Notes: a model not told the origin generated them from the letters alone. Counted from the stretch's first letter, positions 27,951-58,664 are shown. The stretch: 64,000 bases of DNA from a virus (IMGVR_UViG_3300028591_000092:107662-171661), one strand, 5' to 3'. Translations and numbers: made by a program.

Positions 27951-28130
27951 GGTCCTATCATCTAGCGGGATCACCCCAATAGCTCTAGTACTAGCCCGTA
28001 AGAGGTTTGCTCTAAGCCGTTATAGCTTTATGGTGCAAAGTATAAGCCGGAAGAAGGAAACAGTGAGGGAGTGGTCAAAGGATAAATACTTCTCAAGTAT
28101 GAAACAGAGGTTCGAATCCTCTTGGGACTA
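27951..28130 (+). tRNA. tRNA-Glu(CTC)-like gene with a ~110-nt insertion in the D-loop
   Basis: Acceptor GGTCCTA/TGGGACT (G1-U72, U6-G67), D-stem ATCT/GGAT, anticodon arm AATAC-TTCTCAA-GTATG, T-arm AGAGG-TTCGAAT-CCTCT, discriminator A, no CCA. Upstream terminator AGGCAATTTATTATTGCCTTTTT. Confidence 0.5.
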
Positions 28131-30479: not shown

Positions 30480-31860
30480 ACCTAACGTTTGGAAGTTCGG
30501 ACATAAAACTTCAAAGAGGCGACGGTACAGACTTAGCTATTTGTTAAGTAGTCTCATAGACTGGTGATGAACTATTCCAGTCACTCTTTTCTCAATAACC
30601 GAAAGTGGGGGTCCTAAACATAAGTAGCGCTAAAATTATGAACAGGAGTATATAATGAAATACACGGAGAAAAGATTTTATTTTACTGCATAATAGTTCC
30701 GTAAGGACAAATCAGAGAGATACTACGTGCAGGTAATGGCTCTGATTTTTTTAATAGTGTTATTACTCCACTTAATAGAGTAATTAAAGTCCAATTCGGT
30801 CATAAGGACCACGAGAGATGATTGTCTAGGCTCTCACTTTTGACGGATGGAAAGACATCTAAGTTTAGTATTTTGAAAACAAAAGTACTCAGAATAATAC
30901 TCTGTGAAAGTATTTTTTTAAAATCAGAACGAATTGCAATAAGTTCTGATGGAGAGGTTGCAAACTCTCATGGATATGTAGTATAAAGGAGTACTCTGCT
31001 GGGCTAGTGGTTATAAATGCTGTACAAGCTACCAGACTACTCGGCGGCGGCGTAGGTTAGAATCCTACCATATCTTCTAAAATCCATCAAATGACACGAT
31101 GGTTGACTCCTATCAATAGAGTAGGTACAGGCTGTTATTAGAAGCCACACGTCCTCCCGTGAGTGTGAGGTGTCCCAAAGTTATTCTTTTACTGGCACAA
31201 AAGTTTTAGTCAAGAACAAAAAAAGACAATTTTGAGCATAGTCGTCTGATCAGGACTATGCCTTCTATCTAGAGTGATTCTCTAAGGTTGATTACCAATC
31301 ATCTGACACTTTAAAAGTAAGCCAATAGGGGAAACTTTGTCAAAGTTTTAATAGTTTACTGACGTAAGATCTCATCAATCGAAAACTATTTGTTAGTAAA
31401 TATGGTAGCTATTGAGTCGCTCTTAATAGTAGAGGTTCGATTCCTCTTTTACTTCTAAATCCAATTCTCACAATTGGTAGCAGGCTGTAATAGAAGCCAA
31501 GTTTATCACTATAATGCATAAAGTGACATCAAAGAGTTAGATGTAAAATAGGACTGGTCAACTCAAAAAAGATCTTGGGCATAATTGCTTGGTTGTAATT
31601 ATGCTTTCTAATTAGAAAATTTCTTAAAACTATGTACATAAGTTTAACATATCTATTGGGTTGGTTGTTGACTTAGTTTTAAGAGATACTTAAAAATCCA
31701 TTCTATGATACCATGTTTTCGTAGAATAAGTAAGTGACATGGCACAATGCAGTTTGGTGGATTCTGCTTATTTTAGATAATATAATATTGCCATATACAA
31801 CTTTGATAACCAATCAATTTTATATCTTCCCCTCCTAGAATCCGCTAGGAGGGGATAACC
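30480..31860 (+). ncRNA. ~1.4-kb ORF-free structured region with duplicated ~80-100-nt units (31055-31155 and 31425-31505), each holding a T-arm-like hairpin and a GGTA(G)CAGGCTGT.ATAGAAGCCA motif; group-I-like AAGTCCAATTC at 30787
   Basis: No ORF of 60 aa or more on either strand. GTAGGTTAGAATCCTAC and GAGGTTCGATTCCTC hairpins. AAGTCCAATTC is shared with the tRNA-Leu intron at 43985. Confidence 0.35.
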
Positions 31861-34007: not shown

Positions 34008-34862
34008 ATGTTTAAAAATAATTGTTGTGACGGAATTTATCATTCTTACGATGTTCATTTTACATCTGTATGTGATAATAAATGTTCATTTTGTATTGAT
34101 AAAAAATATCAAGGCATAAACTGTAAAAAGCCAAATCCTAATGCTATTGCAAAAACTATTATTGACAATAGTGAAGGTTTTGATGATGTACTTTTTCTTG
34201 GAGGAGAACCATGTTTGTTCCTTGAAGAGTTGATTGAATGTATTGCATTAATCAAAGGGCAAACTAATTTGAAATGTTATATAACAACATCAATGCCAAA
34301 AACATGTTATGACAAAAAAGAATTATTCTTTGAATTAATTAACATGTGTGATGGTATTAATATTTCAGCACAGCATTATAATCAAGATATTGCAGATAAA
34401 ATTCGTGCAACAAAATCTAAATATGATAGAATGGCATTTTATAAATCTTTACCTTATAAAGAAAAATTCAGAATTAATTTAAATATTAATAAACCATATC
34501 TTTATAAGAAAGAAGATTTAATAGAATGTCTAAAATTTTTCGATGATCTTGGTTTTCCTGAGATTAAACTTTCAGAAATTCAGCATGGATCAGAATATTT
34601 TGTTTCATTTGAATCAATTTTTAATATTAAAATGAAATCACCTTATTCTAGCGGATGTCAAACATGGGTTGATATGAAACCGTGGATTCCGGATTTCAAA
34701 GGAAAACTTCTACTTAAAAGAAGTTGTTTTCTTTGTGAAAGTACACTTAAAGCAAGTTTCATGGATGGAGTAAAAGCATTATATAGACAATTTTCAAGAC
34801 CAGATGTAAAATATGGTGTTATTTATGAAAATGGAATGCTTTCTAAAAAAGGATGGATTTAA
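34008..34862 (+). CDS. radical SAM enzyme
   Basis: CDNKCSFC (CxxxCxxC) near the N-terminus and a GGEP SAM-binding motif. Confidence 0.8.
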   Translation: MFKNNCCDGIYHSYDVHFTSVCDNKCSFCIDKKYQGINCKKPNPNAIAKTIIDNSEGFDDVLFLGGEPCLFLEELIECIALIKGQTNLKCYITTSMPKTCYDKKELFFELINMCDGINISAQHYNQDIADKIRATKSKYDRMAFYKSLPYKEKFRINLNINKPYLYKKEDLIECLKFFDDLGFPEIKLSEIQHGSEYFVSFESIFNIKMKSPYSSGCQTWVDMKPWIPDFKGKLLLKRSCFLCESTLKASFMDGVKALYRQFSRPDVKYGVIYENGMLSKKGWI

Positions 34863-43633: not shown

Positions 43634-44235
43634 GCCACCTTGGCGGAATTGGCAGACGCGAAGGACTTAATTATTAATTTGAGTGCACTGAGGGAAACCT
43701 TAGATGTAGAACCTCCCTAATTCGGTGGAAGCTAAGTTAGAATAAAAAAGAAAGTGTAGGTTTTGAGGAAGATTTCACGAGTCTCCGGACAATCCCGTAT
43801 CCTCTCTAAGTTTTTCCTTTTCTAATATGCTAATACCGAGCCAATGTTAAGATAGCGGAATGGGCTTGCTCTTACTTGAAATAATAGTAATGAGATTGTA
43901 GTGCCGTGAAAATAGACAGTGTGTAGAGACTATACAGGAGGAACCTAAGTTGAAATAAATTTAGTATGGAGTATTATGACCCACAAGTCCAATTCTTTGA
44001 AGGATTGCTTATGAATGGGATAAGAGCATAAAGCATTGCATCGAAACATACGCTTGCAAGATTTTAATATGGTTTAGATAGAGTCCAGACTACAACAAAT
44101 AGGTGTAGGTTCGTTGCCTACAGATTAAGTTCGTAATAACTTGCAGACGAAATCTATTTGGCTATGGAAACATAGAGTAGTAAGAAAATCCTTTGGCCCG
44201 AAGGGGCTATCCCGGTTCGATCCCGGGAGGTGGTA
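43634..44235 (+). tRNA. tRNA-Leu(UAA) interrupted after U34 by a ~516-nt group-I-like intron. Exons 43634..43668 and 44185..44235; intron 43669..44184.
   Basis: 5' exon GCCACCT-TG-GCG-GAATTGGCAGA-CGC-G-AAGGA-CTT and 3' exon AAAA-TCCTT-TGGCCCGAAGGGGCTAT-CCCGG-TTCGATC-CCGGG-AGGTGGT-A. Exon ends in U; intron ends in G; GAGT near the intron start can pair with ACTT of the exon (P1 with a U-G pair). Confidence 0.6.
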
Positions 44236-44365
44236 CTAATAAATTATATTAATAAATATTAATATATGGAAAAAATATTAACAAAAAACATTGTATATAA
44301 ACTTGGTTTACAAATTGTCTGTTATTACAGTTGAGGTGATTAGCTAAACTTAAAAATGCATAATT

Positions 44366-44635: not shown

Positions 44636-45022
44636 ATGAAAATAATAAATCACGAAACTTATGTGTCGCTCGAAGTAGCGAAATTACTGAAACAAGCAGG
44701 ATTTGATTGGAAATGCTCACATCAATTTATTGATGGTAAAATAATTGAAATGCTTTTTTCATATTCAAATTCACAAATGTGTACAGAACATTTTGCTGCG
44801 CCAACTCTCGCTGTTGCTCAAAAATGGTTGAGAGAAATGAAGGGATGGGAAGCACAGGTAGCATACGGATTTGATGAGGACGGTCACAAAACTTATGTTA
44901 CAGAATGCGGAAATCCAGAAGGAGATTTGGAAGATTATAAAGTATATTTTCCGACGTACGAAGAAACTCTTGAAGCAGGTATTAAGAAAGCGCTTGAAAT
45001 AATTTTAGAAAAAGGAGAATAA
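44636..45022 (+). CDS. hypothetical protein, paralog of 40719..41165
   Basis: ORF track. Confidence 0.5.
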   Translation: MKIINHETYVSLEVAKLLKQAGFDWKCSHQFIDGKIIEMLFSYSNSQMCTEHFAAPTLAVAQKWLREMKGWEAQVAYGFDEDGHKTYVTECGNPEGDLEDYKVYFPTYEETLEAGIKKALEIILEKGE

Positions 45023-45025
45023 ATT

Positions 45026-45564
45026 ATGTTGACAGGCGGAAGATTAGTATTAACAAATGGTTATGTAATTGCATATACTGATAATTATAATACCAACTAC
45101 AATGATTGGAGTGGTCAAGATGGGTTTGTTATATTAGATAAGGCTGGTCAACGAATTGGTGGTCTTTATCAGCACGCAGTAGACGCTTTGGAAGATGCGT
45201 TGAAATATGAGGAGGAATAAGATTATGAAAGCAGAAGAATTAGAAAAACACCAGCGAGAAAGAGAAGTACATGCCAAAAAGGCAATAAAACTTCTAAAAA
45301 AGTGTTTAGAACTAGTTGAGAATTCACTAAAGAAAGGGGAATAATAATATGAAAAAGATTTATTACAAACACATCATCATCACAAAAGGAGACCAAGATT
45401 ATGCAGAAAAAGAAATCAACTCCTATATTAAGGATGCAGGAAACATCAACATCATATCACTAAATGTTGTTCCAGAGAGAGTTGGTGTGGTTGATTGTGG
45501 CGGATATGCGTTACCAAAGTATTGGTATCATATTAGTTTAGTATATACATCTAATGAAGAATGA
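45026..45564 (+). other. two small hypothetical genes (45026..45220, 45349..45564)
   Basis: ORF track. Confidence 0.4.
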
Positions 45565-45633
45565 AACATACTATTGTATTTGCATTAAAGTTTCTTATAA
45601 CGTTCTCCTTTAATATAATTAAATAGCTATATT

Positions 45634-45705
45634 TGTCTAATGGTATAAAGGCTATTACGTCAGATTTTGGTTCTGAAGATCTTGGTTCGATTCCAGGTTA
45701 GACAA
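45634..45705 (+). tRNA. tRNA-Gln(TTG), second divergent copy
   Basis: Acceptor TGTCTAA/TTAGACA, anticodon arm TCAGA-TTTTGGT-TCTGA, T-arm CTTGG-TTCGATT-CCAGG. Confidence 0.6.
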
Positions 45706-45731
45706 CTCGTTCATATTAAAAAAAATTAATT

Positions 45732-45995
45732 ATGTCTGAAGAAAAGAAAAAGAAAAGTGGTTATGCAATTTTGCGTGCAAAGTTGAATGACATGGAAAAA
45801 GAAAAAGAGCGTTTGATACAAGATAATGCTGATCTTGTTGCTCAAATTGAAGCTTTAAAAGCTAAGAAAAAAGATGTTGATTGGAAAAAATCATTTGATT
45901 CTTTGAATGAATGTTATGAAGAATATCGTACATTTATTCAAAAAAAGATTTCTAATCTTGGATTTCTTGGTAAAATTCTTTGGAATCGGGCTTAA
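45732..45995 (+). CDS. small coiled-coil protein
   Basis: ORF track; terminator GGGCTTAATTTAAGCCCTTT follows at 45988-46007. Confidence 0.5.
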   Translation: MSEEKKKKSGYAILRAKLNDMEKEKERLIQDNADLVAQIEALKAKKKDVDWKKSFDSLNECYEEYRTFIQKKISNLGFLGKILWNRA

Positions 45996-46007
45996 TTTAA
46001 GCCCTTT

Positions 46008-46119
46008 GGTCCTTTCGTCTAATAAGAGTATGAGACCTTCGCAGTTCGATCTGGATCATACTGGAATAGGACATATAATCGCTCGGTTATAGATGCAAGT
46101 TCGATTCTTGCAGGGACTA
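46008..46119 (+). ncRNA. tRNA-Glu-derived tRNA-like RNA (candidate Y-RNA-like). Acceptor-like GGTCCTT/AGGGACT, ~48-nt D-loop insertion, stem TATAA/TTATA closing a conserved 8-nt loop TCGCTCGG, T-arm GCAAG-TTCGATT-CTTGC.
   Basis: See finding. No CCA; discriminator A. Confidence 0.5.
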
Positions 46120-46185
46120 CAAAATGTAAATAGTTAAATGTATTCATAAAATTTTAACATAATTGTAATAAATAATTATTTTAAA

Positions 46186-46494
46186 TTGGTGTGTCTTCGC
46201 AGCCAACATTTTTATTGTATGTTTAAAAAGAATGATATAGTTTTTATTGATAAAAGGCAGTATATAACATACTTTAGATCTGAATGTAGTTTTAAGGAAG
46301 CTGAAGATGCTTTTAATGAAATTGCAAAAGAATATTCTTATTTTATTGTTAAAGCATTTAATAAAAATAAGAATTTAATTAATTTGTTGCCTGTATACAA
46401 GGATGCAAATACAGTAGTTAAACATCTTTGGTTAGATGTTCCTGCTTTTCTTTTTACTAAAATTTATAGAAATATTATTAATTTAGAAAATTAA
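46186..46494 (+). CDS. small protein of the I-x-(D/N)-L C-terminal family
   Basis: ORF track; ends ..NIINLEN. Confidence 0.4.
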   Translation: MVCLRSQHFYCMFKKNDIVFIDKRQYITYFRSECSFKEAEDAFNEIAKEYSYFIVKAFNKNKNLINLLPVYKDANTVVKHLWLDVPAFLFTKIYRNIINLEN

Positions 46495-46524
46495 GACATA
46501 ATAGTCAAATAAAGAATTTCATCG

Positions 46525-46596
46525 ACAGTGATTAGCTCAATTGGTAGAGTACAAAATTTGGTTTTTGAAGTAGTAGGTTCGATTCCTACATTATTG
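46525..46596 (+). tRNA. tRNA with a 6-nt anticodon loop TTTGGT (anticodon ambiguous: TTG or TGG)
   Basis: Acceptor CAGTGAT/ATTATTG, D-arm GCTC-AATTGGTA-GAGT, anticodon stem CAAAA/TTTTG, T-arm GTAGG-TTCGATT-CCTAC. Confidence 0.45.
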
Positions 46597-46634
46597 TAAC
46601 AAAATTTTCTTTATTACTTTCTTTATGTCTTTAT

Positions 46635-46723
46635 GGTCCTTTCGTCTAATAAAGTATTAGTTATACTGGTTAGGACACAAGATCGCTCGGTTTTGGATGA
46701 ATGTTCGAATCATTCAGGGACTA
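46635..46723 (+). ncRNA. tRNA-Glu-derived tRNA-like RNA, paralog of 46008..46119. D-loop hairpin insert AGTAT..ATACT; stem CAAGA/TTTTG closing loop TCGCTCGG; T-arm GAATG-TTCGAAT-CATTC.
   Basis: See finding. The ORF 46633..46893 N-terminus overlaps and is probably spurious there. Confidence 0.5.
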
Positions 46724-46740
46724 CTACTATATTTATTTTT

Positions 46741-46893
46741 ATGAAAACTCCTAAAGAAAAATTTCAAGAAAACAGTTCGGAAATTGTTCATATGTTGCAT
46801 GATCTTGGATATACTCCTCATACTATTGTACAAGATGCATTAAATGAACATATGGATGTATATGAATATATATCTATTCTTTTTGATTTATAA
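46741..46893 (+). CDS. small hypothetical protein (likely real start MKTPKEKF)
   Basis: ORF track. Confidence 0.35.
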   Translation: MKTPKEKFQENSSEIVHMLHDLGYTPHTIVQDALNEHMDVYEYISILFDL

Positions 46894-46895
46894 TT

Positions 46896-47569
46896 ATGAC
46901 ATTAGAAATTCCTATAAAATATGGTAATACATATTTACGAGTAGAAAGTTTACAGAGAGACATTAATGAAAAAATATATTATTTTCAATTATATCATGAT
47001 TTTAATTGTACAAATAAATTGTCTAATGAAGAATGTAGAATATTTTATGTAAAGTATTGTGGGTGTACAATGAGTGATTTTATCCTTAAAAATAAAAATA
47101 AGTATTTTAAAGGAATAAAACTTACAGAAATTCTTTTTGATGATTCTCCTAATTTCTGTAGTATTGAAGATCTTGTAAAATTTGTTATTATAATGAATAG
47201 AGTATTTTCATATAAAGAAATATATGATCGCGTATTAAAATAAGATATAGTATGATACTTTATTGGGATATAAAAAGTAACGACAGTTCTTCATGTTTTT
47301 GGATTAAGTTTTTTCATGATCCAAATAAAACATCATGTTTTACAATACGAGAAATTCAATCTTTTTGGATATCAATATTAAATAGTCCTCTTTCTATATT
47401 TTTATTTTCAAATAGACATAGTGAAAAAATTTTAAATACTATAAACTTTGCTAATATAGAGCATGTTGACTCCCCTGATTTTTATACGAGAGAAGATTGT
47501 TTTAAATTTATGAAATGGGTAGAATGTAAAATGTTTTACTCTGATTTAAGAAAAAGAATTCTTAATTAA
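46896..47569 (+). other. two paralogous small genes (46896..47243, 47252..47569) with similar C-termini (DSP.F..ED..KF....S....R.L)
   Basis: ORF track. Confidence 0.45.
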
Positions 47570-47581
47570 AAAATTATAGTC

Positions 47582-49273
47582 ATGACAAAAATTAATTCAA
47601 GAAATGCACAATTAAAAAGTGCTTTAGGTGCTATGGCTCCTAAGGAAAGAGTTAAAGAAGTTTTAAATATTCCAAAAGAAGATACTAAGAACCGTCAAGG
47701 TTTTGCAGCATATTCTTTGCCGGAAGAACTTCGTTTAATTAGCATGCTTAACACTCTTAAGGTACAGGAACAATTTTATCGTACCGAAAATAAGCAAATG
47801 CAAGAACTTAGAGATCTTATTGAACGTATAGGATTTAAAGATCCTTATTTTGTAGCTCAGTGTATTAAATACTCTCGATGCATGGGCGAAGGCATGCGTG
47901 ATATTAATAATATTGCTGCAGCTTTATTAGCTCCTTTTGCCTCTGGCCAAGAATGGGCAAAACGTTTCTATAGTCTGTATAATAAGAAAACACAGCTTGG
48001 TGGTTGCATTTTCCGTGCAGATGATATGAATGCAATTAAAACAGTATTTTCTGCTTTAAATACTCCTAAGCTTTCAGCCGCAATGAAAGTTGGTTTTCGT
48101 AATACTTTGGAAGCTCTTGATGCATATCAGTTAGCTAAGTATGCAAAGACAACTCGTGATATTGCAAATCTTGTTCATCCTAATCCTGAGAAATCTAAAG
48201 CAGTTATAACTTTAACTGGTAAAGATCGAGATAAATTTCTTGATGGAAAAGGTTATGATGAAAGTGCTTCTGAAATTACAGTAAAAGTGCTTGATGCTAT
48301 TATGTCCGGTATTACTGTTTCAGCAGATACTTGGGAAGTAGCAAATTCAGAAGCAGGTCAAGAAGTTGCTAAAGCTGTTAAAGCTGGCAAAATTACTGCA
48401 GAAGAAGGTAAAAAGATTTTAGCACAAGCTAAAGATCAGAATTTCCAAGATCTTCTTAAAGAAGGAAAACTTGGTGTTCTTGCTGCTTTGCGTAATATTC
48501 GTCAGATTTTACAATATTCAGATCAGAAAACTGTAGATTTGTTATGTGCTCTTCTTTCCAATCCTGAAAAGATTCGTCAAGGAAAGATCATGCCTTATCA
48601 AATTGATATTGCATATGAAGTATTAAATACTGAATTTCGTTCTTACGATAAGTATACACAAGTTCGTGATGCTTTAGTTCGTGGTTATGAAACTTCTGTC
48701 CCTAATTTAGCTGAAGCTCTTCCTGGAAAGACTTTAGTTATTTTAGATTGTTCTGGTTCAATGTCTGCATTTCTTTATGATTCTGCAAATAAACGTCGTT
48801 TGTATTCTAGTTGTCTTGATAAAGCCTCTTTGATTGCTGCTACTATTGCTAAAGCAACTGGGGCTGATGTTATTCGTTTTGGATCAAGAGCAGAATGGAC
48901 AAGCTACAACAAGAATCATACTGTATTTGATATTGCACAACAATTTGCTGCATCTCGTATGGGATGCACTTATTTGAATTATGCTTGGGATCTTGCTCGT
49001 GTAAGTCATAAAGATTATGATCGAGTAATTATTCTCTCGGATAATGAGTGCAACTCAATGCAAAGAGTGTCAACTTCTTATAAGCAGTATGTGCACGACG
49101 TATGCTCACCATATGTTTATTGTTGTGATATGGCAGCTTATGGAACTACTCCACTTGCAGGCGATAAAGTTAATTATTATTGTGGCTATGGCTATAAGTT
49201 ATTTGACGATATTGCAAGTAACGAGTTTAACCCAATGCAACACATTGAGAAAATAAGAAAGGTAGTCATTTGA
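47582..49273 (+). CDS. Ro60/Rsr-like protein: alpha-helical TROVE-like N-terminal ~370 aa plus C-terminal vWA domain with MIDAS motif
   Basis: 563 aa. VILDCSGSMS (DxSGS MIDAS). Size and architecture match Ro60/Rsr. Surrounded by tRNA-like RNA genes. Confidence 0.6.
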   Translation: MTKINSRNAQLKSALGAMAPKERVKEVLNIPKEDTKNRQGFAAYSLPEELRLISMLNTLKVQEQFYRTENKQMQELRDLIERIGFKDPYFVAQCIKYSRCMGEGMRDINNIAAALLAPFASGQEWAKRFYSLYNKKTQLGGCIFRADDMNAIKTVFSALNTPKLSAAMKVGFRNTLEALDAYQLAKYAKTTRDIANLVHPNPEKSKAVITLTGKDRDKFLDGKGYDESASEITVKVLDAIMSGITVSADTWEVANSEAGQEVAKAVKAGKITAEEGKKILAQAKDQNFQDLLKEGKLGVLAALRNIRQILQYSDQKTVDLLCALLSNPEKIRQGKIMPYQIDIAYEVLNTEFRSYDKYTQVRDALVRGYETSVPNLAEALPGKTLVILDCSGSMSAFLYDSANKRRLYSSCLDKASLIAATIAKATGADVIRFGSRAEWTSYNKNHTVFDIAQQFAASRMGCTYLNYAWDLARVSHKDYDRVIILSDNECNSMQRVSTSYKQYVHDVCSPYVYCCDMAAYGTTPLAGDKVNYYCGYGYKLFDDIASNEFNPMQHIEKIRKVVI

Positions 49274-49301
49274 TTACCTTTCTTATAACTTATATTGACA
49301 T

Positions 49302-49324
49302 TAGTCAGTGATTCACTTACTTCG
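49302..49324 (+). promoter_or_regulatory. copy b of the 23-nt motif
   Basis: tagtcagtgattcacttacttcg. Confidence 0.4.
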
Positions 49325-49326
49325 AA

Positions 49327-49440
49327 TTTGGTCTGCTAAACCGGCGGTCACTGGTTCGAGTCCAGTATATATTATAATATATTAGCTCAGTTGGTAGAGC
49401 GCCTTTTGTTTTATGTGAATTACGTTTTCTATGTCAATTA
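49327..49440 (+). ncRNA. unresolved tRNA-like module. A 3' half (anticodon-arm-like GGTCTGCTAAACC, T-arm ACTGG-TTCGAGT-CCAGT, ATATATT-A) is followed within 2 nt by a 5' half (AATATAT-TA-GCTC-AGTTGGTA-GAGC); the two acceptor strands are complementary to each other.
   Basis: Seen in sequence. Could be a permuted/circularising tRNA-like RNA or two split genes. Confidence 0.3.
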
Positions 49441-49558
49441 TTTTAGTGAGGATAACACTTTAAAACCTTTTATCTATAGTTTTGGGCAAAACTAAGCTGC
49501 TTTAAGAGTTGTGCAGAGGGTAGGATATTCTGCAGATTGCCTATCAAAACTCTTATTC

Positions 49559-49690
49559 GGCGAGCTAGTTAAATAAAAAAGTTTCACTCTAGTCTATATT
49601 CTTCGTAAGATAGTCATGATTTAGAGTTACTTCGGTTATAACAATTTCCTCCTAAGAAATCATATCCAGGTTCGAGTCCTGGGCTCGCCA
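49559..49690 (+). tRNA. tRNA-Arg(CCT)-like with a ~65-nt D-loop insertion that contains motif copy c
   Basis: Acceptor GGCGAGC/GCTCGCC (7/7), D-stem GTTA/TAAC, anticodon arm ATTTC-CTCCTAA-GAAAT, T-arm CCAGG-TTCGAGT-CCTGG. Confidence 0.45.
49611..49635 (+). promoter_or_regulatory. copy c of the 23-nt motif (inside the tRNA-Arg D-loop insert)
   Basis: tagtcatgatttagagttacttcgg. Confidence 0.4.
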
Positions 49691-49700
49691 CTATAAACTA

Positions 49701-49722
49701 TAGTCATAGATGAGTTACTTCG
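49701..49722 (+). promoter_or_regulatory. copy d of the 23-nt motif
   Basis: tagtcatagatgagttacttcg. Confidence 0.4.
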
Positions 49723-49871
49723 TGCATTAGTAAGAAAAAATTATGAATTTTTTCCACGTAGCTGTCACTAATGGGACAGACGTTGTTATACCGTAACGAC
49801 AAGAACGGTATTGACAGATGGCAAAGACCTCTTTCTCATCTAGTTTTCTTAGTTTATTTACTATATCTGTA

Positions 49872-49894
49872 TAGTCAAAAGAACACTTACTTCG
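49872..49894 (+). promoter_or_regulatory. copy e of the 23-nt motif
   Basis: tagtcaaaagaacacttacttcg. Confidence 0.4.
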
Positions 49895-49949
49895 AAATAA
49901 ATTTGGGATTTTATTATATTATAGTGTTTTTATTGTTCTTACAGATTAT

Positions 49950-50025
49950 TCCCTCTTAGCTCAGTTGGTTTTAGAGTACGAAACTTTTAATTTTGGGGTC
50001 CTGGGTTCGAGTCCCAGAGGGGGAA
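49950..50025 (+). tRNA. tRNA-Lys(TTT)
   Basis: Acceptor TCCCTCT/AGGGGGA, D-arm GCTC-AGTTGGTTTTA-GAGT, anticodon arm CGAAA-CTTTTAA-TTTTG, T-arm CTGGG-TTCGAGT-CCCAG. Confidence 0.65.
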
Positions 50026-50054
50026 CTAAATAAATTCTATTAAATTAAAATCAT

Positions 50055-50378
50055 ATGATAATTGAATTTTGTGGATGTAATGGTATTTTAATGGAAGAAT
50101 CTAGATATTGGTTATTGTTCCAACATCATTATGATACAATGTATTATATTTATAATATAATATGTAAAAAATTAAATATAAAAGTAGATGTTTTTGAACA
50201 TAATTGGTCTCCAATTTTACATATTATATTTAAAGAAAGACTAAATAAAGTTCGTTGGTTATCAGGTGAATTTCCGGAATTTTATAATAAAAGAGATCTT
50301 TTTATATTTATTTCTTCTATAAATCAAATTTATGGTACAACAAATAATTTTGTTGATTTAAATTTTTATTCTTTATAA
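50055..50378 (+). CDS. small protein of the C-terminal (I/F)(I/V)(D/N)L family
   Basis: ends ..NFVDLNFYSL. Confidence 0.5.
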   Translation: MIIEFCGCNGILMEESRYWLLFQHHYDTMYYIYNIICKKLNIKVDVFEHNWSPILHIIFKERLNKVRWLSGEFPEFYNKRDLFIFISSINQIYGTTNNFVDLNFYSL

Positions 50379-50451
50379 TAATAAATTTAGCGGCTATCGT
50401 ATAACGGTTAGTACTTAAGATTTTTTAAAAAGTATTGAAATAAAAAATAAT

Positions 50452-50536
50452 GGCGCTATCGACTAGTGGTTTAGGTCGCTGCTCTTTCAAGGCAGTTGGA
50501 TGTAAATCCTCACGAGTTCGAATCTCGTTGGCGCTA
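50452..50536 (+). tRNA. tRNA-Glu(TTC) with a 16-nt hairpin (GGAT-GTAA-ATCC) inserted in the variable region
   Basis: Acceptor GGCGCTA/TGGCGCT (G1-U72), D-arm GACT-AGTGGTTTA-GGTC, anticodon arm CTGCT-CTTTCAA-GGCAG, T-arm ACGAG-TTCGAAT-CTCGT. Confidence 0.6.
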
Positions 50537-50549
50537 CAATATACCATAA

Positions 50550-50572
50550 TAGTCATGTAAATACTTACTTCG
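50550..50572 (+). promoter_or_regulatory. copy f of the 23-nt motif, followed by T-arm-like hairpin GCCAG-TTCGAGT-CTGGT
   Basis: tagtcatgtaaatacttacttcg. Confidence 0.4.
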
Positions 50573-50692
50573 TTTATGCCAGTTCGAGTCTGGTTTTTCG
50601 TACATTACGAAAGTGGCGGAAAGGTAAACGCGCAAATCTGAAACATTTGTTAATAACATCATATCAGTATTTATAATTTTCTTTATGGTTTT

Positions 50693-50826
50693 GGTCCTCT
50701 CGTCTAGTGGGATAACTAGGATATTCAGCAAGTAAGAGATGTAATGATAAGCTTCATCTTATCTATGTTATCAAAGGACATTAAATCGCTCGGTTTAAGA
50801 CAGAAGTTCGAATCTTCTGGGGACTA
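50693..50826 (+). ncRNA. tRNA-Glu-derived tRNA-like RNA, third member of the TCGCTCGG-loop family. ~70-nt D-loop insertion; stem TTAAA/TTTAA; T-arm AGAAG-TTCGAAT-CTTCT.
   Basis: See finding. Confidence 0.5.
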
Positions 50827-50843
50827 CTAAAATTTTTAAAATT

Positions 50844-51290
50844 ATGATTTATATAGCTGGACCTTTTTCTACGGAGCAAGAAAGAGCTTCATTAGAAAAA
50901 ATGATTACATTAGTAAGAAAAAGATATCCTTTAGAAGATCTTTATATTCCTATGGATTTTAAAGTTGAAGGAGATTTTCAAAAATTAGATGGCACTTGGA
51001 ATCTTCCAAATCATGAGTGGGCAAAGAAAGTATATGAAGCAGACGTTGAACATTTATTATCTTCTAGAATGGTATTTGCTATGTATTGTGGTAGAATTCA
51101 TTCTTCTGGTAGTATTTGGGAAATTGGATATGCCTGTGGTAAAGAAATTCCTGTAATTTTATATATTCCTAAGTGGGCTAGTAATGAAATGTCCCTTATG
51201 GTTTTAAATGGAGTTTATGGTTATATAGATGAAAATAGTATGATTTATCCTTTTACTCCAAAATTACTAAAATCTTTTAATCAAAAATAA
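50844..51290 (+). CDS. nucleoside 2-deoxyribosyltransferase-like protein
   Basis: MIYIAGPF and SGSIWEIGYA motifs. Confidence 0.6.
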   Translation: MIYIAGPFSTEQERASLEKMITLVRKRYPLEDLYIPMDFKVEGDFQKLDGTWNLPNHEWAKKVYEADVEHLLSSRMVFAMYCGRIHSSGSIWEIGYACGKEIPVILYIPKWASNEMSLMVLNGVYGYIDENSMIYPFTPKLLKSFNQK

Positions 51291-51291
51291 T

Positions 51292-53644
51292 ATGACTAAA
51301 AAAAATATAAAGTTAGGAGATATTATTAAAACTAGAGAAGGATATTTATATATATATGCTAAATGTAATTTTAGGATTAGATATTTTAGTTGTAAAAAAA
51401 TACTATATTGTCCTCAAACAGGAAAATACTTTGGGCAAGGATTAGATAGTTTTAATAATAATTTAGAATATATATATTATAATCCCAATTCTAGACATGA
51501 TATTATAGATTGTTTTCGTCCATGCTCTAAATTTAAAACTATTAATATATCTGAATCTGATATTGGGAATATTACAACAGAAAAATATCGTATAATGTAT
51601 ATGTTATCTAATTCTTATTCTATTAAAAATTCATGTATAATTGATTTGTCTTATTTAAAATGATTTTTAAAAAATATTTATAGTTAGGAGAAAATTATAA
51701 TATTAATTATATATAGGGTTAGATCTAAAATTTTTATTAAAACATTCATATCCTGTTTATTCTGAATTTGTTGATTTAATTATTTAACAACTATTTTTAT
51801 GATTGAAAAAAAAGATGTTCAATTAGGTGATTTATTTCTTCTAAGTAATGGATATTATTATTTATATGTATATTGTCGTTCTTGGCGTAAAAATATATTT
51901 ATAAGGAATGGAGGATATTATAAAATATCTGGTTTAAATAACTACAATGAATATTTACAATATATTGATCCTTATTTATCACAAAATAATATGTTTGATA
52001 TTTTAAAAATTTATAGACCTTATTCTAAATATACAAAACGAATTATAGAATATACTACAAATTTTTATTTTCCTATTAGTTATATTATACATCATTCTGT
52101 AGATATTACTAATGGTACAAAGTTTACTATTGTTGATTTAAATAATTACTCTTAATATTAGATTTATAGTTTAGTGGTAAAACTAGTGACTCCAAATCTC
52201 CAATCCCTTGTTCGATTTTAAATAGATATACATTATTATTATGAAAAAAAGTGATCTTAAATTTGGTGATATTATAATTACTAAATATGGCTATATATAT
52301 GTTTTAGTATATGTAGATGGTGGTGAAGGAATTCGTTTTGTCAGAAGTAATGGAAATTATTTATTACCTGCTATGTTTGACACTGAACTTCATTGTAAAG
52401 GCAATAGAGATTTAGATATTGTTAAAGTAGTTCGGCCTTTACCTAAAGATAGAATTATTGCTGCTTCCCAAAGACATATTATTAAATATTATGATTTTTT
52501 TGGGGCTGTACGTCGGGGAACAGAGTTAAATTCTTATATTATTGATTTGTCTGTTTATAATGATCCTTGGCGGACAATGAAGGTTGATTCTTCAATGAGT
52601 TCTTTATTTAATATATAATATGTTAAAAGTTATTGGTAAAAATTTTGTTATAAGTATTAAAGGAAAATTATATAATGGAGAAATTTTTGGAGATACTTAT
52701 GATTTTTTTCTTTGTCGTATACGTACTGTAAAAAATAATAGATATGTATATTTTGGCAATGATTATTTATTTTCTTTAGTTAATATTAAAAAAAAAGATT
52801 TAATAGATTTCTATTATTCTATTCTTCATTATTATCCTAAAAATGGATGTTGCCCATGTACAAGAACAAAATCTGATACAATTAAAATATTATCAGCTTT
52901 AGATAAATTATCCAATAATGGTTGTTGTATAGATTTAAATTATATTGAATATGTTTAAATATTCTTCAAAAAATAATTATTTTAAATTTAATATTAACTC
53001 AAAAATATATGAAGGTATTATATGTTCTTCTGATTGCGGATATTATCCAAGATTTTTTGGTGATTATTTTGGGTACGAATATTATGCAATGCCTTTAATA
53101 GATCTTCATTTGTTTGAACAACCCAAAAAAGATAATCTTTTTAGACAAATTTTAGGATATACAAATCATTTAGGTTTTTGGCCTTATTGTAGTTCTAAAC
53201 AAGATGTTATAAAGGTGTTAAAATATCTTTCTAATTTAAGTAATAGAACAATTGTAAATTTAAATTTATATAATGATTAGAGTAATTGTGCCAATATCTT
53301 GGGCATCTGTTTTACGAATAAATTTATTTGATAAACTTAAAGCATTAGGTTATACTTGGAGCAAAGGAGATTCTTTAGATACTTTCCATGAAAAGTACCA
53401 GAATATGGCTTATATTGCTATATATCCTATAGATAAACACATCATTAAGTTTGGTACAAATTTAGAAACAGGAACCAAACTTCATGGAGAATACGGTTAT
53501 AATTATGTTACTGAATATAAAGAAGTAGATCAAATTATAAGTGTAGTTAAACTTGTTTCTATGTTTTTAAAAATTTGTAAAGTAGAATATGCTGAAAAAA
53601 GCTTTGTTCAAGAACATAATTCTTTAAAGAGATATAAAATATGA
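51292..53644 (+). other. tandem array of six small paralogous genes (51292..51663, 51799..52155, 52241..52618, 52620..52958, 52945..53280, 53273..53644) sharing N-terminal K.GD(I/L).......GY.Y and C-terminal I(I/V)(D/N)L(N/S).Y
   Basis: ORF track alignments by eye. Confidence 0.5.
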
Positions 53645-53818: not shown

Positions 53819-54097
53819 ATGACTTATTTTATAATTATTTTAGTACAACTTTTTTTATTATCTGTTGTATTTATGACCTTTGAGTACGAAAATAAGATTT
53901 GGAATGTATTAGCAATATTTAGTGCTGTTGTTCCTATATTAGGAATAATAATATTACCAATTCTTATTGGAGTAAGCGCTGTTAAAGCCTGTGAAGATTA
54001 TAGGTGGCAAACACCAACTATAAAAATTAAAGAAACAAAATTGAATAAATATTTATATTCTACTCATTTTAAAAACAAAAAAGATGAAAAATTTTAA
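53819..54097 (+). CDS. small 2-TM membrane protein (NfeD-like partner candidate)
   Basis: ORF track; overlaps the downstream SPFH gene. Confidence 0.4.
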   Translation: MTYFIIILVQLFLLSVVFMTFEYENKIWNVLAIFSAVVPILGIIILPILIGVSAVKACEDYRWQTPTIKIKETKLNKYLYSTHFKNKKDEKF

Positions 54098-54914
54098 ATT
54101 TCTATTTTCTTTGGCACTATGTATAGTGTCTTTGGCTTTTACAAGTTGTATTACTTGTGTAGATTCTGCAGAAGTTGGCATTAAGTTTAATAAACTGTCT
54201 TTGACAGACCAAGGAACTCTTGATGCTGTAACTGTAACAGGTTATACTAGTTATAATCCTTTTACAACTTCTATTTATACGTACGAAACTCGTGTACGAT
54301 CTGCGAACTATAAACCATTTATAGTTCAAACTAAGGATGGTTCTAAATTTTCTATGGATCCTAATCTTAATTATCATTTGATTCGAGAGAAAGCTATTGA
54401 TGTTTTTTCAAAGTATCGTAAATCTTTGGATTATATTGAATCTAACTATATGCAAACTGCTATATATGATGCTTATCGAATTAATGCTAATAAATATACT
54501 GCAGATGAATTAGTTGCTAATCGAGCACAGTTTGAAGATAATGTTAAAGCTATGCTTGATACAACTTTGCGCGCAGAAGGATTTCATGTAGAACAATTTA
54601 CTTCGCAGATTGAACCGCCTCAAAGTTTAACTGACATGATTAATGCTAAAGTTGCAGCTGTTCAAGCAGCACTTAAAGCAGAAAATGAAGTTAAAAAAGC
54701 TGAAGCAGATGCAAAAATTGCAGTAGCTAAAGCTGAAGGTGAAGCAAAAGCAATGCGTGTGCGTGCTGATGCTGAGGCTTATTATAATATGAAAATCTCT
54801 AGTTCTCTTTCAGATCGCATTGTTCAAGAAGATTTCCTTGAAAAATGGGATGGAAAGATGCCAGGGTATTATATGCCTAGTGGAAATGCTGGAGTATTTA
54901 AAATGCTTCCATAG
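54084..54914 (+). CDS. SPFH/Band-7 (HflK/C, flotillin-like) domain lipoprotein
   Basis: Lipobox FTSC; Ala/Glu-rich coiled segment AEGEAKAMRVRADAEAY typical of SPFH proteins. Confidence 0.65.
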   Translation: MKNFKFLFSLALCIVSLAFTSCITCVDSAEVGIKFNKLSLTDQGTLDAVTVTGYTSYNPFTTSIYTYETRVRSANYKPFIVQTKDGSKFSMDPNLNYHLIREKAIDVFSKYRKSLDYIESNYMQTAIYDAYRINANKYTADELVANRAQFEDNVKAMLDTTLRAEGFHVEQFTSQIEPPQSLTDMINAKVAAVQAALKAENEVKKAEADAKIAVAKAEGEAKAMRVRADAEAYYNMKISSSLSDRIVQEDFLEKWDGKMPGYYMPSGNAGVFKMLP

Positions 54915-58576: not shown

Positions 58577-58664
58577 GGAAGTTTGGCAGAGTTGATCTAT
58601 TGCACTGGACTTGAAATCAAGCGGGCTGTAAAATGTTCCGGAGATTTGAATCATTCAGCTTCCA
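58577..58664 (+). tRNA. tRNA-Ser(TGA), class II
   Basis: Acceptor GGAAGTT/AGCTTCC, loop CTTGAAA, long variable arm; overall resembles canonical tRNA-Ser(UGA). Confidence 0.6.

What the first reader, a model, noticed from the sequence alone, without database searches (positions are those of the whole stretch)
46008..50826. Candidate phage Ro60/Y-RNA-like module: TROVE+vWA protein flanked by tRNA-Glu-derived RNAs with a conserved 8-nt loop
A 563-aa protein with a helical N-terminal region and a C-terminal vWA MIDAS motif (VILDCSGSMS), matching Ro60/Rsr architecture, sits at 47582-49273. At 46008, 46635 and 50693 are three paralogous RNAs with acceptor-like termini TGGTCCTxTCGTCTA...GGGACTAC(A/T), T-arm TTCGAAT, D-stem GTCT/GGAC with hairpin insertions of different sizes, and a stem whose sequence varies with compensatory changes (TATAA/TTATA, CAAGA/TTTTG, TTAAA/TTTAA) around an invariant loop TCGCTCGG. 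Bacterial Rsr is known to partner with tRNA-like Y RNAs (YrlA). Their UGGUCC/GACUA-type termini recall the Ro-binding helix. A phage-encoded Ro60 with its own tRNA-derived Y-like RNAs in Bacteroidota-type phages would be new.
Basis: partly seen in the sequence, partly recalled or inferred. Interest (0 to 1): 0.85.

Follow-up and report, generated by a model that had tools for sequence, protein, structure and literature searches.

The report
Phage Ro60 gene with tRNA-like RNAs
A large gut-type phage encodes a Ro60-like RNA-binding protein surrounded by odd tRNA-derived RNA genes; phage Ro60/Y-RNA pairs are already known, but the RNAs here (a conserved stem "cassette" wrapped around tRNAs, plus tRNA-Glu copies that have lost their anticodon) appear to be undescribed variants.

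Summary
ORF 47582-49273 is a Ro60 homologue: a family profile and the predicted fold both match solved Ro60/Rsr structures, and the vWA MIDAS motif is intact. The three flagged RNAs are true paralogues with a cloverleaf supported by covariation and an invariant 8-nt loop, UCGCUCGG.

- The flagged RNAs derive from the phage's own tRNA-Glu(CUC) genes. Their "Ro-like" termini also occur in an ordinary tRNA-Glu(CUC) in a related phage, and they have neither YrlA topology nor the GNCGAA motif.
- Better Y-RNA candidates were missed. At least five RNAs next to the gene share a cassette: outer stem, UAGUCA/NUUUUCU internal loop, inner stem, UUACUUC junction. The cassette encloses tRNAs, circularly permuted tRNA-like domains (one scores as Rfam YrlA, E 9.5e-7) or other hairpins.
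- This cassette accompanies Ro genes that are only 24-100% identical, in many gut, rumen and environmental phage contigs, including a published crAss-like phage.
- Phage Ro60 with Y-like RNAs has been known since 2014.

Most likely the flagged RNAs are non-decoding tRNA-Glu mimics within a Ro-associated ncRNA cluster. Their ligand is unknown.

Verdict: new variant of a known kind; moderately high interest.

The parts
47582..49273 (+). Ro60-like protein (TROVE/HEAT ring plus C-terminal vWA with MIDAS DCSGS at residues 389-393)
   Evidence: ORF. Pfam vWA_Ro60 and TROVE hits are below threshold. PHROG 850 'RNA-binding protein' matches at E 1.6e-28. The family profile matches PDB 1yvp, 9l5y and 2nvo. 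An AF2 model searched with Foldseek gives Ro60 structures as the top 13 hits.
46008..46119 (+). Flagged RNA 1: tRNA-Glu(CUC)-derived cloverleaf, 48-nt D loop with hairpin, invariant loop UCGCUCGG at 46079-46086
   Evidence: Rfam tRNA scores 27.9 bits, below the gathering score of 29.
46635..46723 (+). Flagged RNA 2: same family, 25-nt D loop, loop at 46683-46690; starts 6 nt after cassette C0
50693..50826 (+). Flagged RNA 3: same family, 70-nt D loop, loop at 50786-50793; starts 5 nt after cassette C5; the next ORF starts 15 nt after its tail
46496..46628 (+). Cassette C0 (variant junction UUUCAUCG) enclosing a tRNA with a 6-nt anticodon loop (46525-46598)
   Evidence: The minimum-energy fold recovers the outer and inner stems.
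49296..49436 (+). Cassette C1: UGACAU|UAGUCA|GUGAUUCAC|UUACUUCG...GUGAAUUAC|GUUUUCU|AUGUCA. Cargo is a permuted tRNA-like domain (anticodon-like arm, T arm, closed acceptor, D arm). It starts 23 nt after the Ro stop codon.
   Evidence: Rfam YrlA scores 41.3 bits, E 9.5e-7, at 49338-49411. RNAalifold on 7 orthologues finds 16 of 33 pairs compensatory.
49559..49690 (+). C2: tRNA-Arg(CCU)-like cloverleaf whose D arm carries the cassette elements UAGUCA and UUACUUCG, a permuted arrangement
   Evidence: Rfam tRNA scores 29.7 bits on 49625-49682. Motif found; fold. The permuted reading is my inference.
49695..49855 (+). Cassette C3 with non-tRNA cargo of three hairpins; conserved in L007, L009, L011, L164, L173 and L174
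49866..49945 (+). Cassette C4 with a 29-nt cargo, immediately upstream of tRNA-Lys(UUU) at 49950-50026
50544..50688 (+). Cassette C5: cargo is a tRNA permuted at the variable loop (T arm, acceptor closed by ACAU, D arm, anticodon arm with GAA)
   Evidence: RNAalifold on 7 orthologues finds 26 of 37 pairs compensatory.
50452..50537 (+). tRNA-Glu(UUC) with a long variable arm, inside the ncRNA cluster
27951..28130 (+). Paralogue of the flagged RNAs that keeps the canonical anticodon loop UUCUCAA (CUC); 116-nt D loop
28242..28442 (+). Second CUC paralogue; 137-nt D loop

Best explanation
The locus is a phage version of the Ro60/Y-RNA system, embedded in a cluster of tRNA-derived non-coding RNA genes that all lie on the + strand.

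Shown:
- The protein is a Ro60 homologue.
- Six RNAs next to it share a conserved two-stem cassette: a 6-bp outer stem, an asymmetric internal loop (UAGUCA opposite NUUUUCU), an 8-9 bp inner stem, and a UUACUUC junction. The cassette holds a tRNA, a circularly permuted tRNA-like domain or another hairpin.
- This cassette recurs beside very distant Ro homologues.
- The three flagged RNAs form a separate family descended from the phage's tRNA-Glu(CUC) genes. They keep acceptor, D, T and 'anticodon' stems, with covariation. They carry a variable hairpin in the D loop. The 7-nt CUC anticodon loop is replaced by an invariant 8-nt UCGCUCGG.

Inferred:
- The cassette stem with its conserved loop is the Ro-binding module, so the cassette RNAs are the functional Y RNAs.
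- The flagged RNAs are transcribed together with the cassettes and neighbouring ORFs. RNase P cuts them out at the 5' end and RNase Z or exonucleases at the 3' end, since no CCA is encoded.
- They fold into an L-shaped tRNA-Glu body whose anticodon end is sealed or altered, so they cannot decode.
- They act as tRNA-Glu mimics whose invariant loop is read by a sequence-specific partner. The most plausible role is as decoys or competitors in the same tRNA surveillance, repair or anti-defence function that phage Ro60 serves.

The identity of the partner is not known.
For: Protein:
- The family profile matches Xenopus Ro60 1yvp (E 4e-12), Thermus phage phiLo Ro60 9l5y/9kop (E 3.7e-12) and Rsr 2nvo (E 2e-5).
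- Foldseek's top 13 hits are all Ro60 structures, aligned over the full length.
- PHROG 850 matches at E 1.6e-28.
- The MIDAS residues are invariant.

Flagged RNAs:
- The cloverleaf shows covariation in 11 of 21 pairs, is 100% paired, and no shuffle of 500 reaches that.
- The family has 12 copies with the 8-nt loop and 6 with the CUC loop, all with a 72-nt core. One CUC member, L173 2589-2664, is an insert-free tRNA-Glu(CUC).
- L173 11632 (loop UUCUCAA) and L164 (loop UCGCUCGG) occupy the same position after the same cassette. They share acceptor, T arm and D-loop insert and differ only in the anticodon arm.
- The loop lacks U33 and can pair into a 7-bp stem with a GCUC tetraloop.
- ARAGORN does not call them.
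- All nine copies with known context lie within 1.6 kb of the Ro gene. Six of the twelve abut a cassette 3' end, and most of the rest abut a terminator-like hairpin.

Cassette:
- All five exact motif matches in the 64-kb window fall within 49302-50572. None is in the tRNA array at 58-63 kb.
- Both stems covary between copies.
- Single-sequence folds recover them, and so does RNAalifold.
- Across 69 distinct Ro loci, TTACTTC occurs 242 times on the Ro strand and 102 times on the other. The two-stem test is passed by 88 of 242 sites on the Ro strand, 2 of 102 on the opposite strand, and 80 of 1380 random positions. Thirty-five of the 69 loci have a cassette within 2.5 kb, and their Ro identity ranges from 24 to 100%.
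- Five tandem cassettes sit directly upstream of a Ro that is 27% identical (L183).
- In the crAss-like phage csAssE-Sib, cassettes wrap the annotated tRNA-Tyr and tRNA-Lys just upstream of 'Ro sixty-related protein'.

Precedent:
- YrlA RNAs are tRNA-like and lie within 4 kb of Ro60 on the same strand, including in 22 phages (PMC4201824).
- phiLo Ro60 binds Yrl1 and Yrl2 and host PNPase (PMC12135203).
- Bas63 gp130 is Ro60-like, sits upstream of tRNA genes and counters a defence system.
Against: - There are no binding or expression data of any kind.
- The conserved cassette elements do not match the known Ro-binding consensus: GNCGAAN0-1G is absent from all nine RNAs.
- Thirty-four of 69 Ro loci have no strict cassette.
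- In one 410-kb contig, cassettes lie more than 5 kb from the Ro gene.
- Cassette cargo is often an apparently normal tRNA, so the cassette could be a processing signal with no link to Ro.
- The tight linkage of the flagged RNAs to Ro in the close clade is equally what one would expect if they were Ro ligands.
- That linkage is largely inherited synteny, so it is weak evidence either way.
- The decoy role is pure inference. The invariant loop has no identified partner; its only exact complement in the window lies inside the Pistol ribozyme P1.
Confidence: 0.5

Rival explanations
1. One reading: the three tRNA-Glu-derived RNAs are themselves the Ro-binding Y RNAs. Ro60 would grip either the acceptor helix (UGGUC/GACUA-like) or the D-loop hairpin.
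For: - They lie on the same strand within 1.6 kb of Ro in the window, L009, L010, L011, L173 and L174.
- The pairs G1-U72, G2-C71, U3-A70 and C4-G69 match four pairs of the vertebrate Y-RNA helix (sequence; own knowledge of Y RNA).
- One neighbouring tRNA-like RNA (49559-49690) does carry cassette elements in its D arm, so D-loop stems can host the putative Ro module.
Against: - The same type of termini occurs in the insert-free tRNA-Glu(CUC) of related contig L173, 5.4 kb from its Ro gene, and in the window's two CUC paralogues 19 kb from Ro.
- Position -1 varies between U, A and C, and pair 3-70 changes to C-G in L174.
- There is no bulge, no GNCGAA motif and no Y_RNA or YrlA hit at E<=10.
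- The D-loop hairpins share no sequence between paralogues.
- The RNAs are absent from L007 (Ro 81% identical, searched to +-6 kb) and from every locus whose Ro is 61% identical or less. The cassette persists down to 24% identity.
Confidence: 0.2
2. The flagged RNAs are working tRNAs. The 8-nt loop would either decode GAG in a form that resists a host anticodon nuclease, or read a four-base codon as a +1 frameshift suppressor.
For: - CUC sits in the middle of UCG-CUC-GG.
- The total length from position 26 to 48 is the same as in the CUC paralogues: 8+3 nt against 7+4 nt.
- The tRNA-Glu-type D stem GUCU/GGAC is invariant.
- The acceptor and T arms are intact.
- Phage tRNAs with altered anticodon loops that evade nucleases are known (own knowledge).
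Against: - There is no U33.
- Loop positions 1-8 and 2-7 can pair, leaving a GCUC tetraloop.
- ARAGORN and Rfam do not accept them as tRNA.
- GluRS normally needs the anticodon loop (own knowledge).
- No sign of programmed four-base decoding was looked for or seen.
Confidence: 0.1
3. The flagged RNAs are tRNA-shaped punctuation marks or decaying tRNA pseudogenes. They would be kept only as RNase P/Z cleavage sites that separate neighbouring RNAs and ORFs.
For: Most copies sit directly after a cassette or a terminator-like hairpin, and 0-20 nt before the next ORF's start codon.
Against: - Punctuation needs no particular loop, yet UCGCUCGG is identical in 12 copies whose stems differ.
- The loop replaced a CUC arm in an otherwise orthologous gene.
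- Full pairing is maintained by compensatory changes, which argues against decay.
Confidence: 0.12
4. The cassette is not a Ro-binding Y-RNA scaffold. It would be a leader/trailer processing stem for a subset of phage tRNAs (RNase III type, or cut by a phage nuclease), or a small catalytic motif. It would lie near Ro only because Ro genes sit in tRNA arrays.
For: - In several copies the tRNA starts exactly at the G of UUACUUCG (L007 5849, L178 7092, L187 249, csAssE-Sib).
- The motif tolerates circular permutation, as small ribozymes do.
- Some cassettes lie more than 5 kb from Ro.
- A polynucleotide kinase/phosphatase-like gene lies near Ro in L175.
Against: - The 15-tRNA array at 58-63 kb in the same window has no cassette, whereas all the window's cassettes lie within 1.3 kb of Ro.
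- Cassettes sit next to Ro at 24-27% protein identity.
- Many cargos are not tRNAs that could mature: their acceptor is closed, or the cargo is tiny.
- No known ribozyme family matches.
Confidence: 0.25

Closest known systems
Bacterial and phage YrlA RNAs with Rsr/Ro60 (Salmonella, M. smegmatis, mycobacteriophages; Chen et al. 2014, PMC4201824; Rfam RF02553)
   Same: - A Ro60 gene has tRNA-like ncRNA genes on the same strand within a few kb.
- In cassettes C1 and C5 the 5' and 3' ends pair into a long stem that carries a T arm, a closed acceptor-like stem and a D arm, as in YrlA.
- C1 scores 41 bits on the YrlA model.
   Different: - The stem carries different conserved elements (UAGYNA, NUUUUCU, UUACUUC) in place of GNCGAAN0-1G.
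- Cargos include complete anticodon arms, ordinary tRNAs and non-tRNA hairpins.
- There are five or six copies per locus.
- The flagged RNAs have normal tRNA topology and do not match YrlA at all.
Thermus phage phiLo Ro60 with Yrl1/Yrl2 (NAR 2025, PMC12135203; PDB 9KOP, 9L5Y)
   Same: A phage-encoded Ro60 ring with vWA, with Y-like RNA genes beside the gene. It is among the two best PDB matches in both the sequence-profile and the fold search.
   Different: About 16-17% sequence identity. The Yrl RNAs were picked by a CGAA-containing bulge. No tRNA-derived or cassette RNAs were described.
Vertebrate Y RNAs (Ro-binding helix 5'-UGGUCCGA / UUGACUA-3')
   Same: Four or five base pairs at the termini of the flagged RNAs coincide with this helix.
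   Different: There is no bulged C, no conservation of position -1 or pair 3-70, and no Rfam Y_RNA hit. The termini are those of the phage's ordinary tRNA-Glu(CUC).
Phage Bas63 gp130 (Ro60-like, upstream of a tRNA block, counters the ppl defence; bioRxiv 10.1101/2024.10.10.617714)
   Same: A Ro60-like gene adjoins phage tRNA genes, and the authors suggest that some of those 'tRNAs' are Y RNAs. It gives a plausible anti-defence role.
   Different: No RNA partner has been defined there, and sequence relatedness to this locus was not tested.
tRNAs with 8-nt anticodon loops (frameshift suppressors) and circularly permuted tRNA genes of Cyanidioschyzon merolae (own knowledge)
   Same: An 8-nt loop in a tRNA body, and a gene order of 3' half followed by 5' half in cassette cargos. 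One orthologue, L007 7721, even encodes GCCA before the linker.
   Different: Suppressor tRNAs keep U33 and a purine at position 37. Permuted tRNA genes are matured through a bulge-helix-bulge (BHB) splicing motif, which is absent here.

Membership tests
Ro60 / TROVE (protein 47582-49273) | HEAT-repeat TROVE ring followed by a vWA domain in one chain, recognisable by sequence profile and by fold | tested here: met
   The family profile matches 1yvp at E 4e-12, 9l5y at 3.7e-12 and 2nvo at 2e-5. Foldseek's top 13 hits are all Ro60, with 539-594 aligned columns. PHROG 850 matches residues 34-553 at E 1.6e-28.
Ro60 / TROVE (protein 47582-49273) | Pfam PF05731 (TROVE) or PF25045 (vWA_Ro60) above the gathering score on this sequence alone | tested here: inconclusive
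   The sequence scores 17.6 against a threshold of 23, and 24.1 against 27.7. Many homologues at 59-81% identity carry precomputed PF05731 or PF25045 hits.
Ro60 / TROVE (protein 47582-49273) | MIDAS motif DxSxS in the vWA domain | tested here: met
   D389-C-S391-G-S393 is invariant in 18-20 homologues. T463 and D487 are also invariant; their MIDAS role is assigned from conservation only.
Ro60 / TROVE (protein 47582-49273) | Binds Y RNA on the outer surface and misfolded RNA ends in the central cavity | not testable with these tools
   Needs EMSA, RIP or a solved structure.
YrlA (RF02553), applied to the three flagged RNAs | 5' and 3' ends form the Ro-binding stem; internal order is T arm, closed acceptor-like stem-loop, D arm | tested here: not met
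   Ordinary tRNA topology with open acceptor ends. No YrlA match at E<=10.
YrlA (RF02553), applied to the three flagged RNAs | GNCGAAN0-1G motif of the Ro-binding strand (PMC4201824) | tested here: not met
   A regular-expression scan finds none.
YrlA (RF02553), applied to the three flagged RNAs | Encoded within 4 kb of the Ro60 gene on the same strand | tested here: met
   Distances to the gene are 1.46 kb, 0.86 kb and 1.42 kb, all on the + strand.
YrlA (RF02553), applied to cassette RNAs C1 and C5 | Terminal stem plus the order T arm, closed acceptor, D arm; score at or above the gathering score of 69 bits | tested here: inconclusive
   Topology is met, with covariation. The score for C1 is 41.3 bits, E 9.5e-7, over model positions 17-92 only. 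GNCGAA is absent.
Vertebrate-type Y RNA (RF00019) | Conserved bulged helix formed by the termini | tested here: not met
   No Rfam hit at E<=10. There is no bulge, and the terminal pairs are not conserved across copies.
tRNA (RF00005), applied to the flagged RNAs | Cloverleaf with four stems maintained by covariation | tested here: met
   All 252 cells are paired and 11 of 21 pairs are compensatory.
tRNA (RF00005), applied to the flagged RNAs | 7-nt anticodon loop with U33 and purine 37; detected by tRNA finders | tested here: not met
   The loop is the 8-nt UCGCUCGG. ARAGORN makes no call. Rfam scores 27.9 bits, below 29, for copy 1 and gives no hit for copies 2 and 3.

The most novel reading that the evidence does not exclude
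The cassette (UAGYNA / NUUUUCU internal loop plus UUACUUC junction) is a new, widespread class of Ro60-binding scaffold in gut and rumen phages. It is built around real and circularly permuted tRNAs, so phage Ro60 particles would be assembled on the phage's own (pre-)tRNAs. The UCGCUCGG tRNA-Glu derivatives would then be anticodon-less decoys that protect this tRNA pool from a host factor directed against tRNA-Glu.
Probability: 0.25. Interest if true: 0.8.

Novelty: new variant of a known kind. Interest (0 to 1): 0.6.

Why it matters
What Y RNAs do in bacteria and phages, and why they mimic tRNA, is still an open question. This locus offers three things.
- A large natural series of RNAs beside Ro60 genes in which the same conserved stem carries ordinary tRNAs, tRNAs permuted at different positions, or non-tRNA cargo. 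That series makes it directly testable which part binds Ro60 and which part is the effector.
- A lineage in which a decoding tRNA-Glu(CUC) was converted into a strictly conserved non-decoding form. This is a clean case of a tRNA being recruited as a regulatory or decoy RNA.
- A link to cultured or published phages. crAss-like csAssE-Sib carries the cassette next to its Ro-like gene, and isolated Bacteroides intestinalis phages also encode Ro-like proteins (their RNAs were not examined here), so experiments may be possible.

If Ro60 does bind the cassette, the Rfam YrlA and Y_RNA models miss a major branch of the family.

Tried and rejected
- Rfam at gathering score, and at E<=10 over 45500-51300, gave nothing on the flagged RNAs except a sub-threshold tRNA hit. 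No known ribozyme or sRNA family matched the cassette.
- blastn of 45000-52000 against GenBank phages matched only tRNA-Lys.
- The loose pattern TCGCTCGG-N10-14-GTTCGA in IMG/VR returned only chance hits in GC-rich phages.
- The strict pattern found nothing in IMG/VR. In JGI metagenomes it found only 3 true copies among 41 matches, all from one sample.
- My first cassette detector required TAGTCA and missed most distant loci. A relaxed detector produced false positives, such as window 24466, 35467 and 54577. I therefore used a fixed-geometry test with opposite-strand and random-position controls.
- I looked for a partner of the invariant loop. The only exact complement in the window is inside Pistol P1, which I treat as coincidence. 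There is no complementarity to the conserved cassette elements (by inspection).
- I looked for a shared core in the D-loop inserts and found none. They match no Rfam family.
- I considered whether the cassette's 5' loop pairs with UUACU. The loop varies while UUACUUC does not, so there is no covariation, and I rejected it.
- I considered hairpin-ribozyme similarity (A-GUC in an internal loop). AGUC is not conserved in distant copies, so I rejected it.
- I considered whether the YrlA hit is the tandem-tRNA artefact that Chen et al. warn about. The two acceptor strands are complementary and covary, so I rejected it.
- Host assignment to Bacteroidota could not be confirmed. Related contigs are binned with Firmicutes, Erysipelotrichales, Prevotella and Bacteroides MAGs.

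Full report
**1. The observation**

The region reads as described. ORF 47582-49273 (+) encodes 563 aa. Three RNAs sit at 46008-46119, 46635-46723 and 50693-50826. They share:
- 5' GGTCCTyTCGTCTA;
- a D stem GTCT/GGAC interrupted by a hairpin of variable size;
- a 5-bp stem around TCGCTCGG;
- a T arm;
- 3' rGGGACT-A-C(A/T)A.

TCGCTCGG occurs 5 times in the window against 0.14 expected. ARAGORN does not call these RNAs. Rfam gives only a sub-threshold tRNA hit for the first (27.9 bits).

**2. The protein**

On the single sequence, Pfam gives only weak vWA_Ro60 (24.1 bits) and TROVE (17.6 bits) hits. The family is large, with more than 2,198 homologues, many of which carry precomputed TROVE or vWA_Ro60 hits.

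A profile of 20 members matches solved structures:

| PDB entry | Protein | E-value |
|---|---|---|
| 1yvp | Xenopus Ro60 | 4e-12 |
| 9l5y / 9kop | Thermus phage phiLo Ro60 | 3.7e-12 |
| 2nvo | D. radiodurans Rsr | 2e-5 |

An AlphaFold2 model (pLDDT 76) finds only Ro60 structures as its top 13 Foldseek hits, aligned over the full length. Generic vWA domains follow far behind. PHROG 850 'RNA-binding protein' covers residues 34-553. The MIDAS residues DCSGS are invariant. The protein is a Ro60 homologue.

**3. What the flagged RNAs are**

Contigs that encode Ro proteins 67-81% identical to this one, plus three short JGI contigs, gave nine further copies with the 8-nt loop.

I trimmed the D-loop insert and aligned the 12 distinct 72-nt cores without gaps. 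The cloverleaf is 100% paired. Eleven of 21 pairs show compensatory changes and 0 of 500 shuffles reach this. Sliding the 3' partners by 1-3 columns collapses pairing to 30-54%. The loop UCGCUCGG never changes.

The same family contains six members with a normal anticodon loop, UUCUCA(A/U), giving anticodon CUC for Glu:
- two in the window, at 27951-28130 and 28242-28442, with D loops of 116 and 137 nt;
- four in related contigs, including an ordinary insert-free tRNA-Glu(CUC) at L173 2589-2664 that ARAGORN calls.

L173 11632-11788 and L164 (reverse strand, 2322-2476) occupy the same place after the same cassette. They share acceptor, T arm and D-loop insert. One has UGUAC-UUCUCAA-GUAUA-AAAU and the other UGAAA-UCGCUCGG-UUUCA-AAU. 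So the 8-nt-loop arm replaces a working CUC arm.

The loop has no U33, and RNAfold closes it into a 7-bp stem with a GCUC tetraloop. The D-loop hairpins are unrelated in sequence between paralogues and match no Rfam family.

The supposedly Ro-like termini belong to the whole tRNA-Glu(CUC) family, including an ordinary tRNA 5.4 kb from the Ro gene of L173 and the window's CUC paralogues 19 kb from Ro. Position -1 is U, A or C, and pair 3-70 is C-G in L174. There is no GNCGAAN0-1G motif.

**4.

Rfam at a relaxed threshold reports a YrlA match (41.3 bits, E 9.5e-7) at 49338-49411, starting 65 nt after the Ro stop codon. It lies inside an RNA with this layout:

UGACAU | UAGUCA | GUGAUUCAC | UUACUUCG ... 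cargo ... GUGAAUUAC | GUUUUCU | AUGUCA

The motif TAGTCA-N(7-10)-TTACTTCG occurs five times in the 64-kb window, all between 49302 and 50572. A variant encloses the tRNA at 46525-46598.

In each copy the 6-nt and the 8-9-nt segments have complementary partners downstream, and these differ from copy to copy. Single-sequence minimum-energy folds recover both stems. RNAalifold on orthologues recovers them too, along with the cargo structure. For C5 that structure is T arm, acceptor closed by a short loop, D stem and anticodon-like arm, with 26 of 37 pairs compensatory. For C1, 16 of 33 pairs are compensatory. The closed acceptor covaries, so the YrlA hit is not the tandem-tRNA artefact noted by Chen et al..

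Cargo varies widely:
- ordinary tRNAs that begin at the G of UUACUUCG (L007 5849, L178, L187);
- tRNAs permuted at position 26 or at the variable loop;
- non-tRNA hairpins (49695-49855);
- almost nothing (49866-49945).

At 49559-49690 the cassette elements sit inside the D arm of a tRNA-Arg(CCU)-like cloverleaf.

**5. Link between cassette and Ro**

I analysed 69 distinct Ro loci totalling 739 kb. Results:

| Sites tested | Pass the fixed-geometry two-stem test |
|---|---|
| TTACTTC on the Ro strand (242 sites) | 88 |
| TTACTTC on the opposite strand (102 sites) | 2 |
| Random positions (1,380) | 80 |

Thirty-five loci have a cassette within 2.5 kb of the gene, and Ro identity in those loci ranges from 24 to 100%.

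An independent pattern scan of IMG/VR found a 113-kb contig (L183) with five tandem cassettes directly upstream of a Ro that is only 27% identical. In distant copies the loops drift (UAGCAA, UAGUAA, UGGUGU; ACUUUCU, UUGUUCC), but UUACUUC stays fixed.

In the published crAss-like phage csAssE-Sib, the annotated tRNA-Tyr and tRNA-Lys just upstream of 'Ro sixty-related protein' are each wrapped in the cassette.

In the window, the 15-tRNA array at 58-63 kb has no cassette.

Caveats:
- Half of the loci lack a strict cassette.
- In one 410-kb contig, cassettes lie more than 5 kb from Ro.
- Cassette-less alphaproteobacterial loci instead show weak YrlA hits upstream of Ro.

**6. Mechanism**

Shown:
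- a Ro60 homologue;
- a conserved, covarying, strand-specific RNA cassette clustered at Ro genes;
- a tRNA-Glu(CUC)-derived family with an invariant non-anticodon loop, also clustered at Ro in the close clade and often abutting a cassette or lying 0-20 nt before an ORF start.

Inferred:
- The cassette stem and loop are the Ro-binding module, by analogy with the terminal stem of Y RNAs (PMC4201824; PMC12135203).
- The flagged RNAs are processed like tRNAs but cannot decode.
- They act as tRNA-Glu mimics read through their invariant loop.

A role in tRNA surveillance, repair or anti-defence fits three published points. Ro is associated with RNA repair in bacteria and jumbo phages. phiLo Ro60 recruits host PNPase. 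The Ro60-like Bas63 gp130 counters a defence system.

**7. Known versus new**

Phage Ro60 with Y-like RNAs is established: 22 phages in 2014 and phiLo in 2025. Ro-like proteins are already annotated in crAss-like phages.

I found no description of the cassette or of the UCGCUCGG tRNA-Glu derivatives, either in Rfam 15 or in five full-text searches. That is absence from those sources only.

Verdict: a new variant of a known kind, with an unexplained element (the invariant loop) and a testable one (the cassette as Ro-binding site).

Noticed in passing
window 24280-24352 (+): Pistol self-cleaving ribozyme, 68.2 bits against a gathering score of 34.5. Its P1 contains CCGAGCGA (24286-24293), the exact complement of the invariant loop UCGCUCGG of the flagged RNAs.
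   Followed up: partly
window 43634-44237 (+): tRNA-Leu(UAA) gene split in the anticodon loop by an insert of about 540 nt. The insert matches Rfam group I intron below threshold (30.6 bits, E 7e-6). Neither tRNA finder reports the gene.
   Followed up: partly
window 27951-28130 and 28242-28442 (+): Two tRNA-Glu(CUC) genes with D loops of 116 and 137 nt holding structured, GC-richer inserts. The inserts match no Rfam family and share no sequence with each other. It is unknown whether they are removed or kept as an extra arm.
   Followed up: partly
window 17426-17504 (-): A tRNA with anticodon CUA, which ARAGORN labels tRNA-Pyl. It is a candidate amber suppressor, hinting at stop-codon reassignment in part of this genome.
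   Followed up: no
window 46525-46598 (+): A tRNA-like gene with a 6-nt anticodon loop (UUUGGU), enclosed in a cassette. The related permuted copies in L007 and L011 have the 7-nt loop UUUUGGU (anticodon UUG).
   Followed up: partly
window 50452-50537 (+); also L173 11389-11475: tRNA-Glu(UUC) with a 14-nt variable arm, a class-II-like feature that is unusual for tRNA-Glu. It is conserved in a related contig.
   Followed up: no
window 30972-31076 and 58577-58664 (+): Over-long tRNA hits of 105 and 88 nt, suggesting further insert-bearing tRNA genes in this phage.
   Followed up: no
L273 (phage csAssE-Sib OR575929.1) 5585-5870: In this published crAss-like phage, the annotated tRNA-Tyr and tRNA-Lys directly upstream of 'Ro sixty-related protein' are each flanked by the cassette (UGGUGA ... 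UUACUUCG ... GCUUUUCC, with complementary stems).
   Followed up: partly
L007 7715-7875: The orthologue of cassette C1 carries a different cargo. It is a permuted tRNA-Asp(GUC)-like gene whose 3' acceptor strand is followed by an encoded GCCA and a 13-nt linker before the 5' acceptor strand. This layout resembles the permuted tRNA genes of red algae.
   Followed up: no
L175 13108-14034; L002 94-436; L003 1533-1737; L004 131-288: Features of related Ro loci: a polynucleotide kinase/phosphatase-like gene (KTI12/AAA_33/HAD_PNKP), a phage-encoded tmRNA (101 bits), and weak matches to archaeal-type RNase P RNA (29-38 bits, below threshold).
   Followed up: no
window 47570-47590 and 49253-49286 (+): The Ro start codon lies inside UAUAGUCAUG. 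A 15-bp hairpin with UAGUCA near its tip spans the Ro stop codon. This could be coding coincidence or autoregulatory sites.
   Followed up: no
window 12537-14027 (-), 34008-34862, 54084-54914, 50844-51290 (+): GroEL-like chaperonin, radical SAM protein, SPFH/Band 7 protein and nucleoside 2-deoxyribosyltransferase genes.
   Followed up: no
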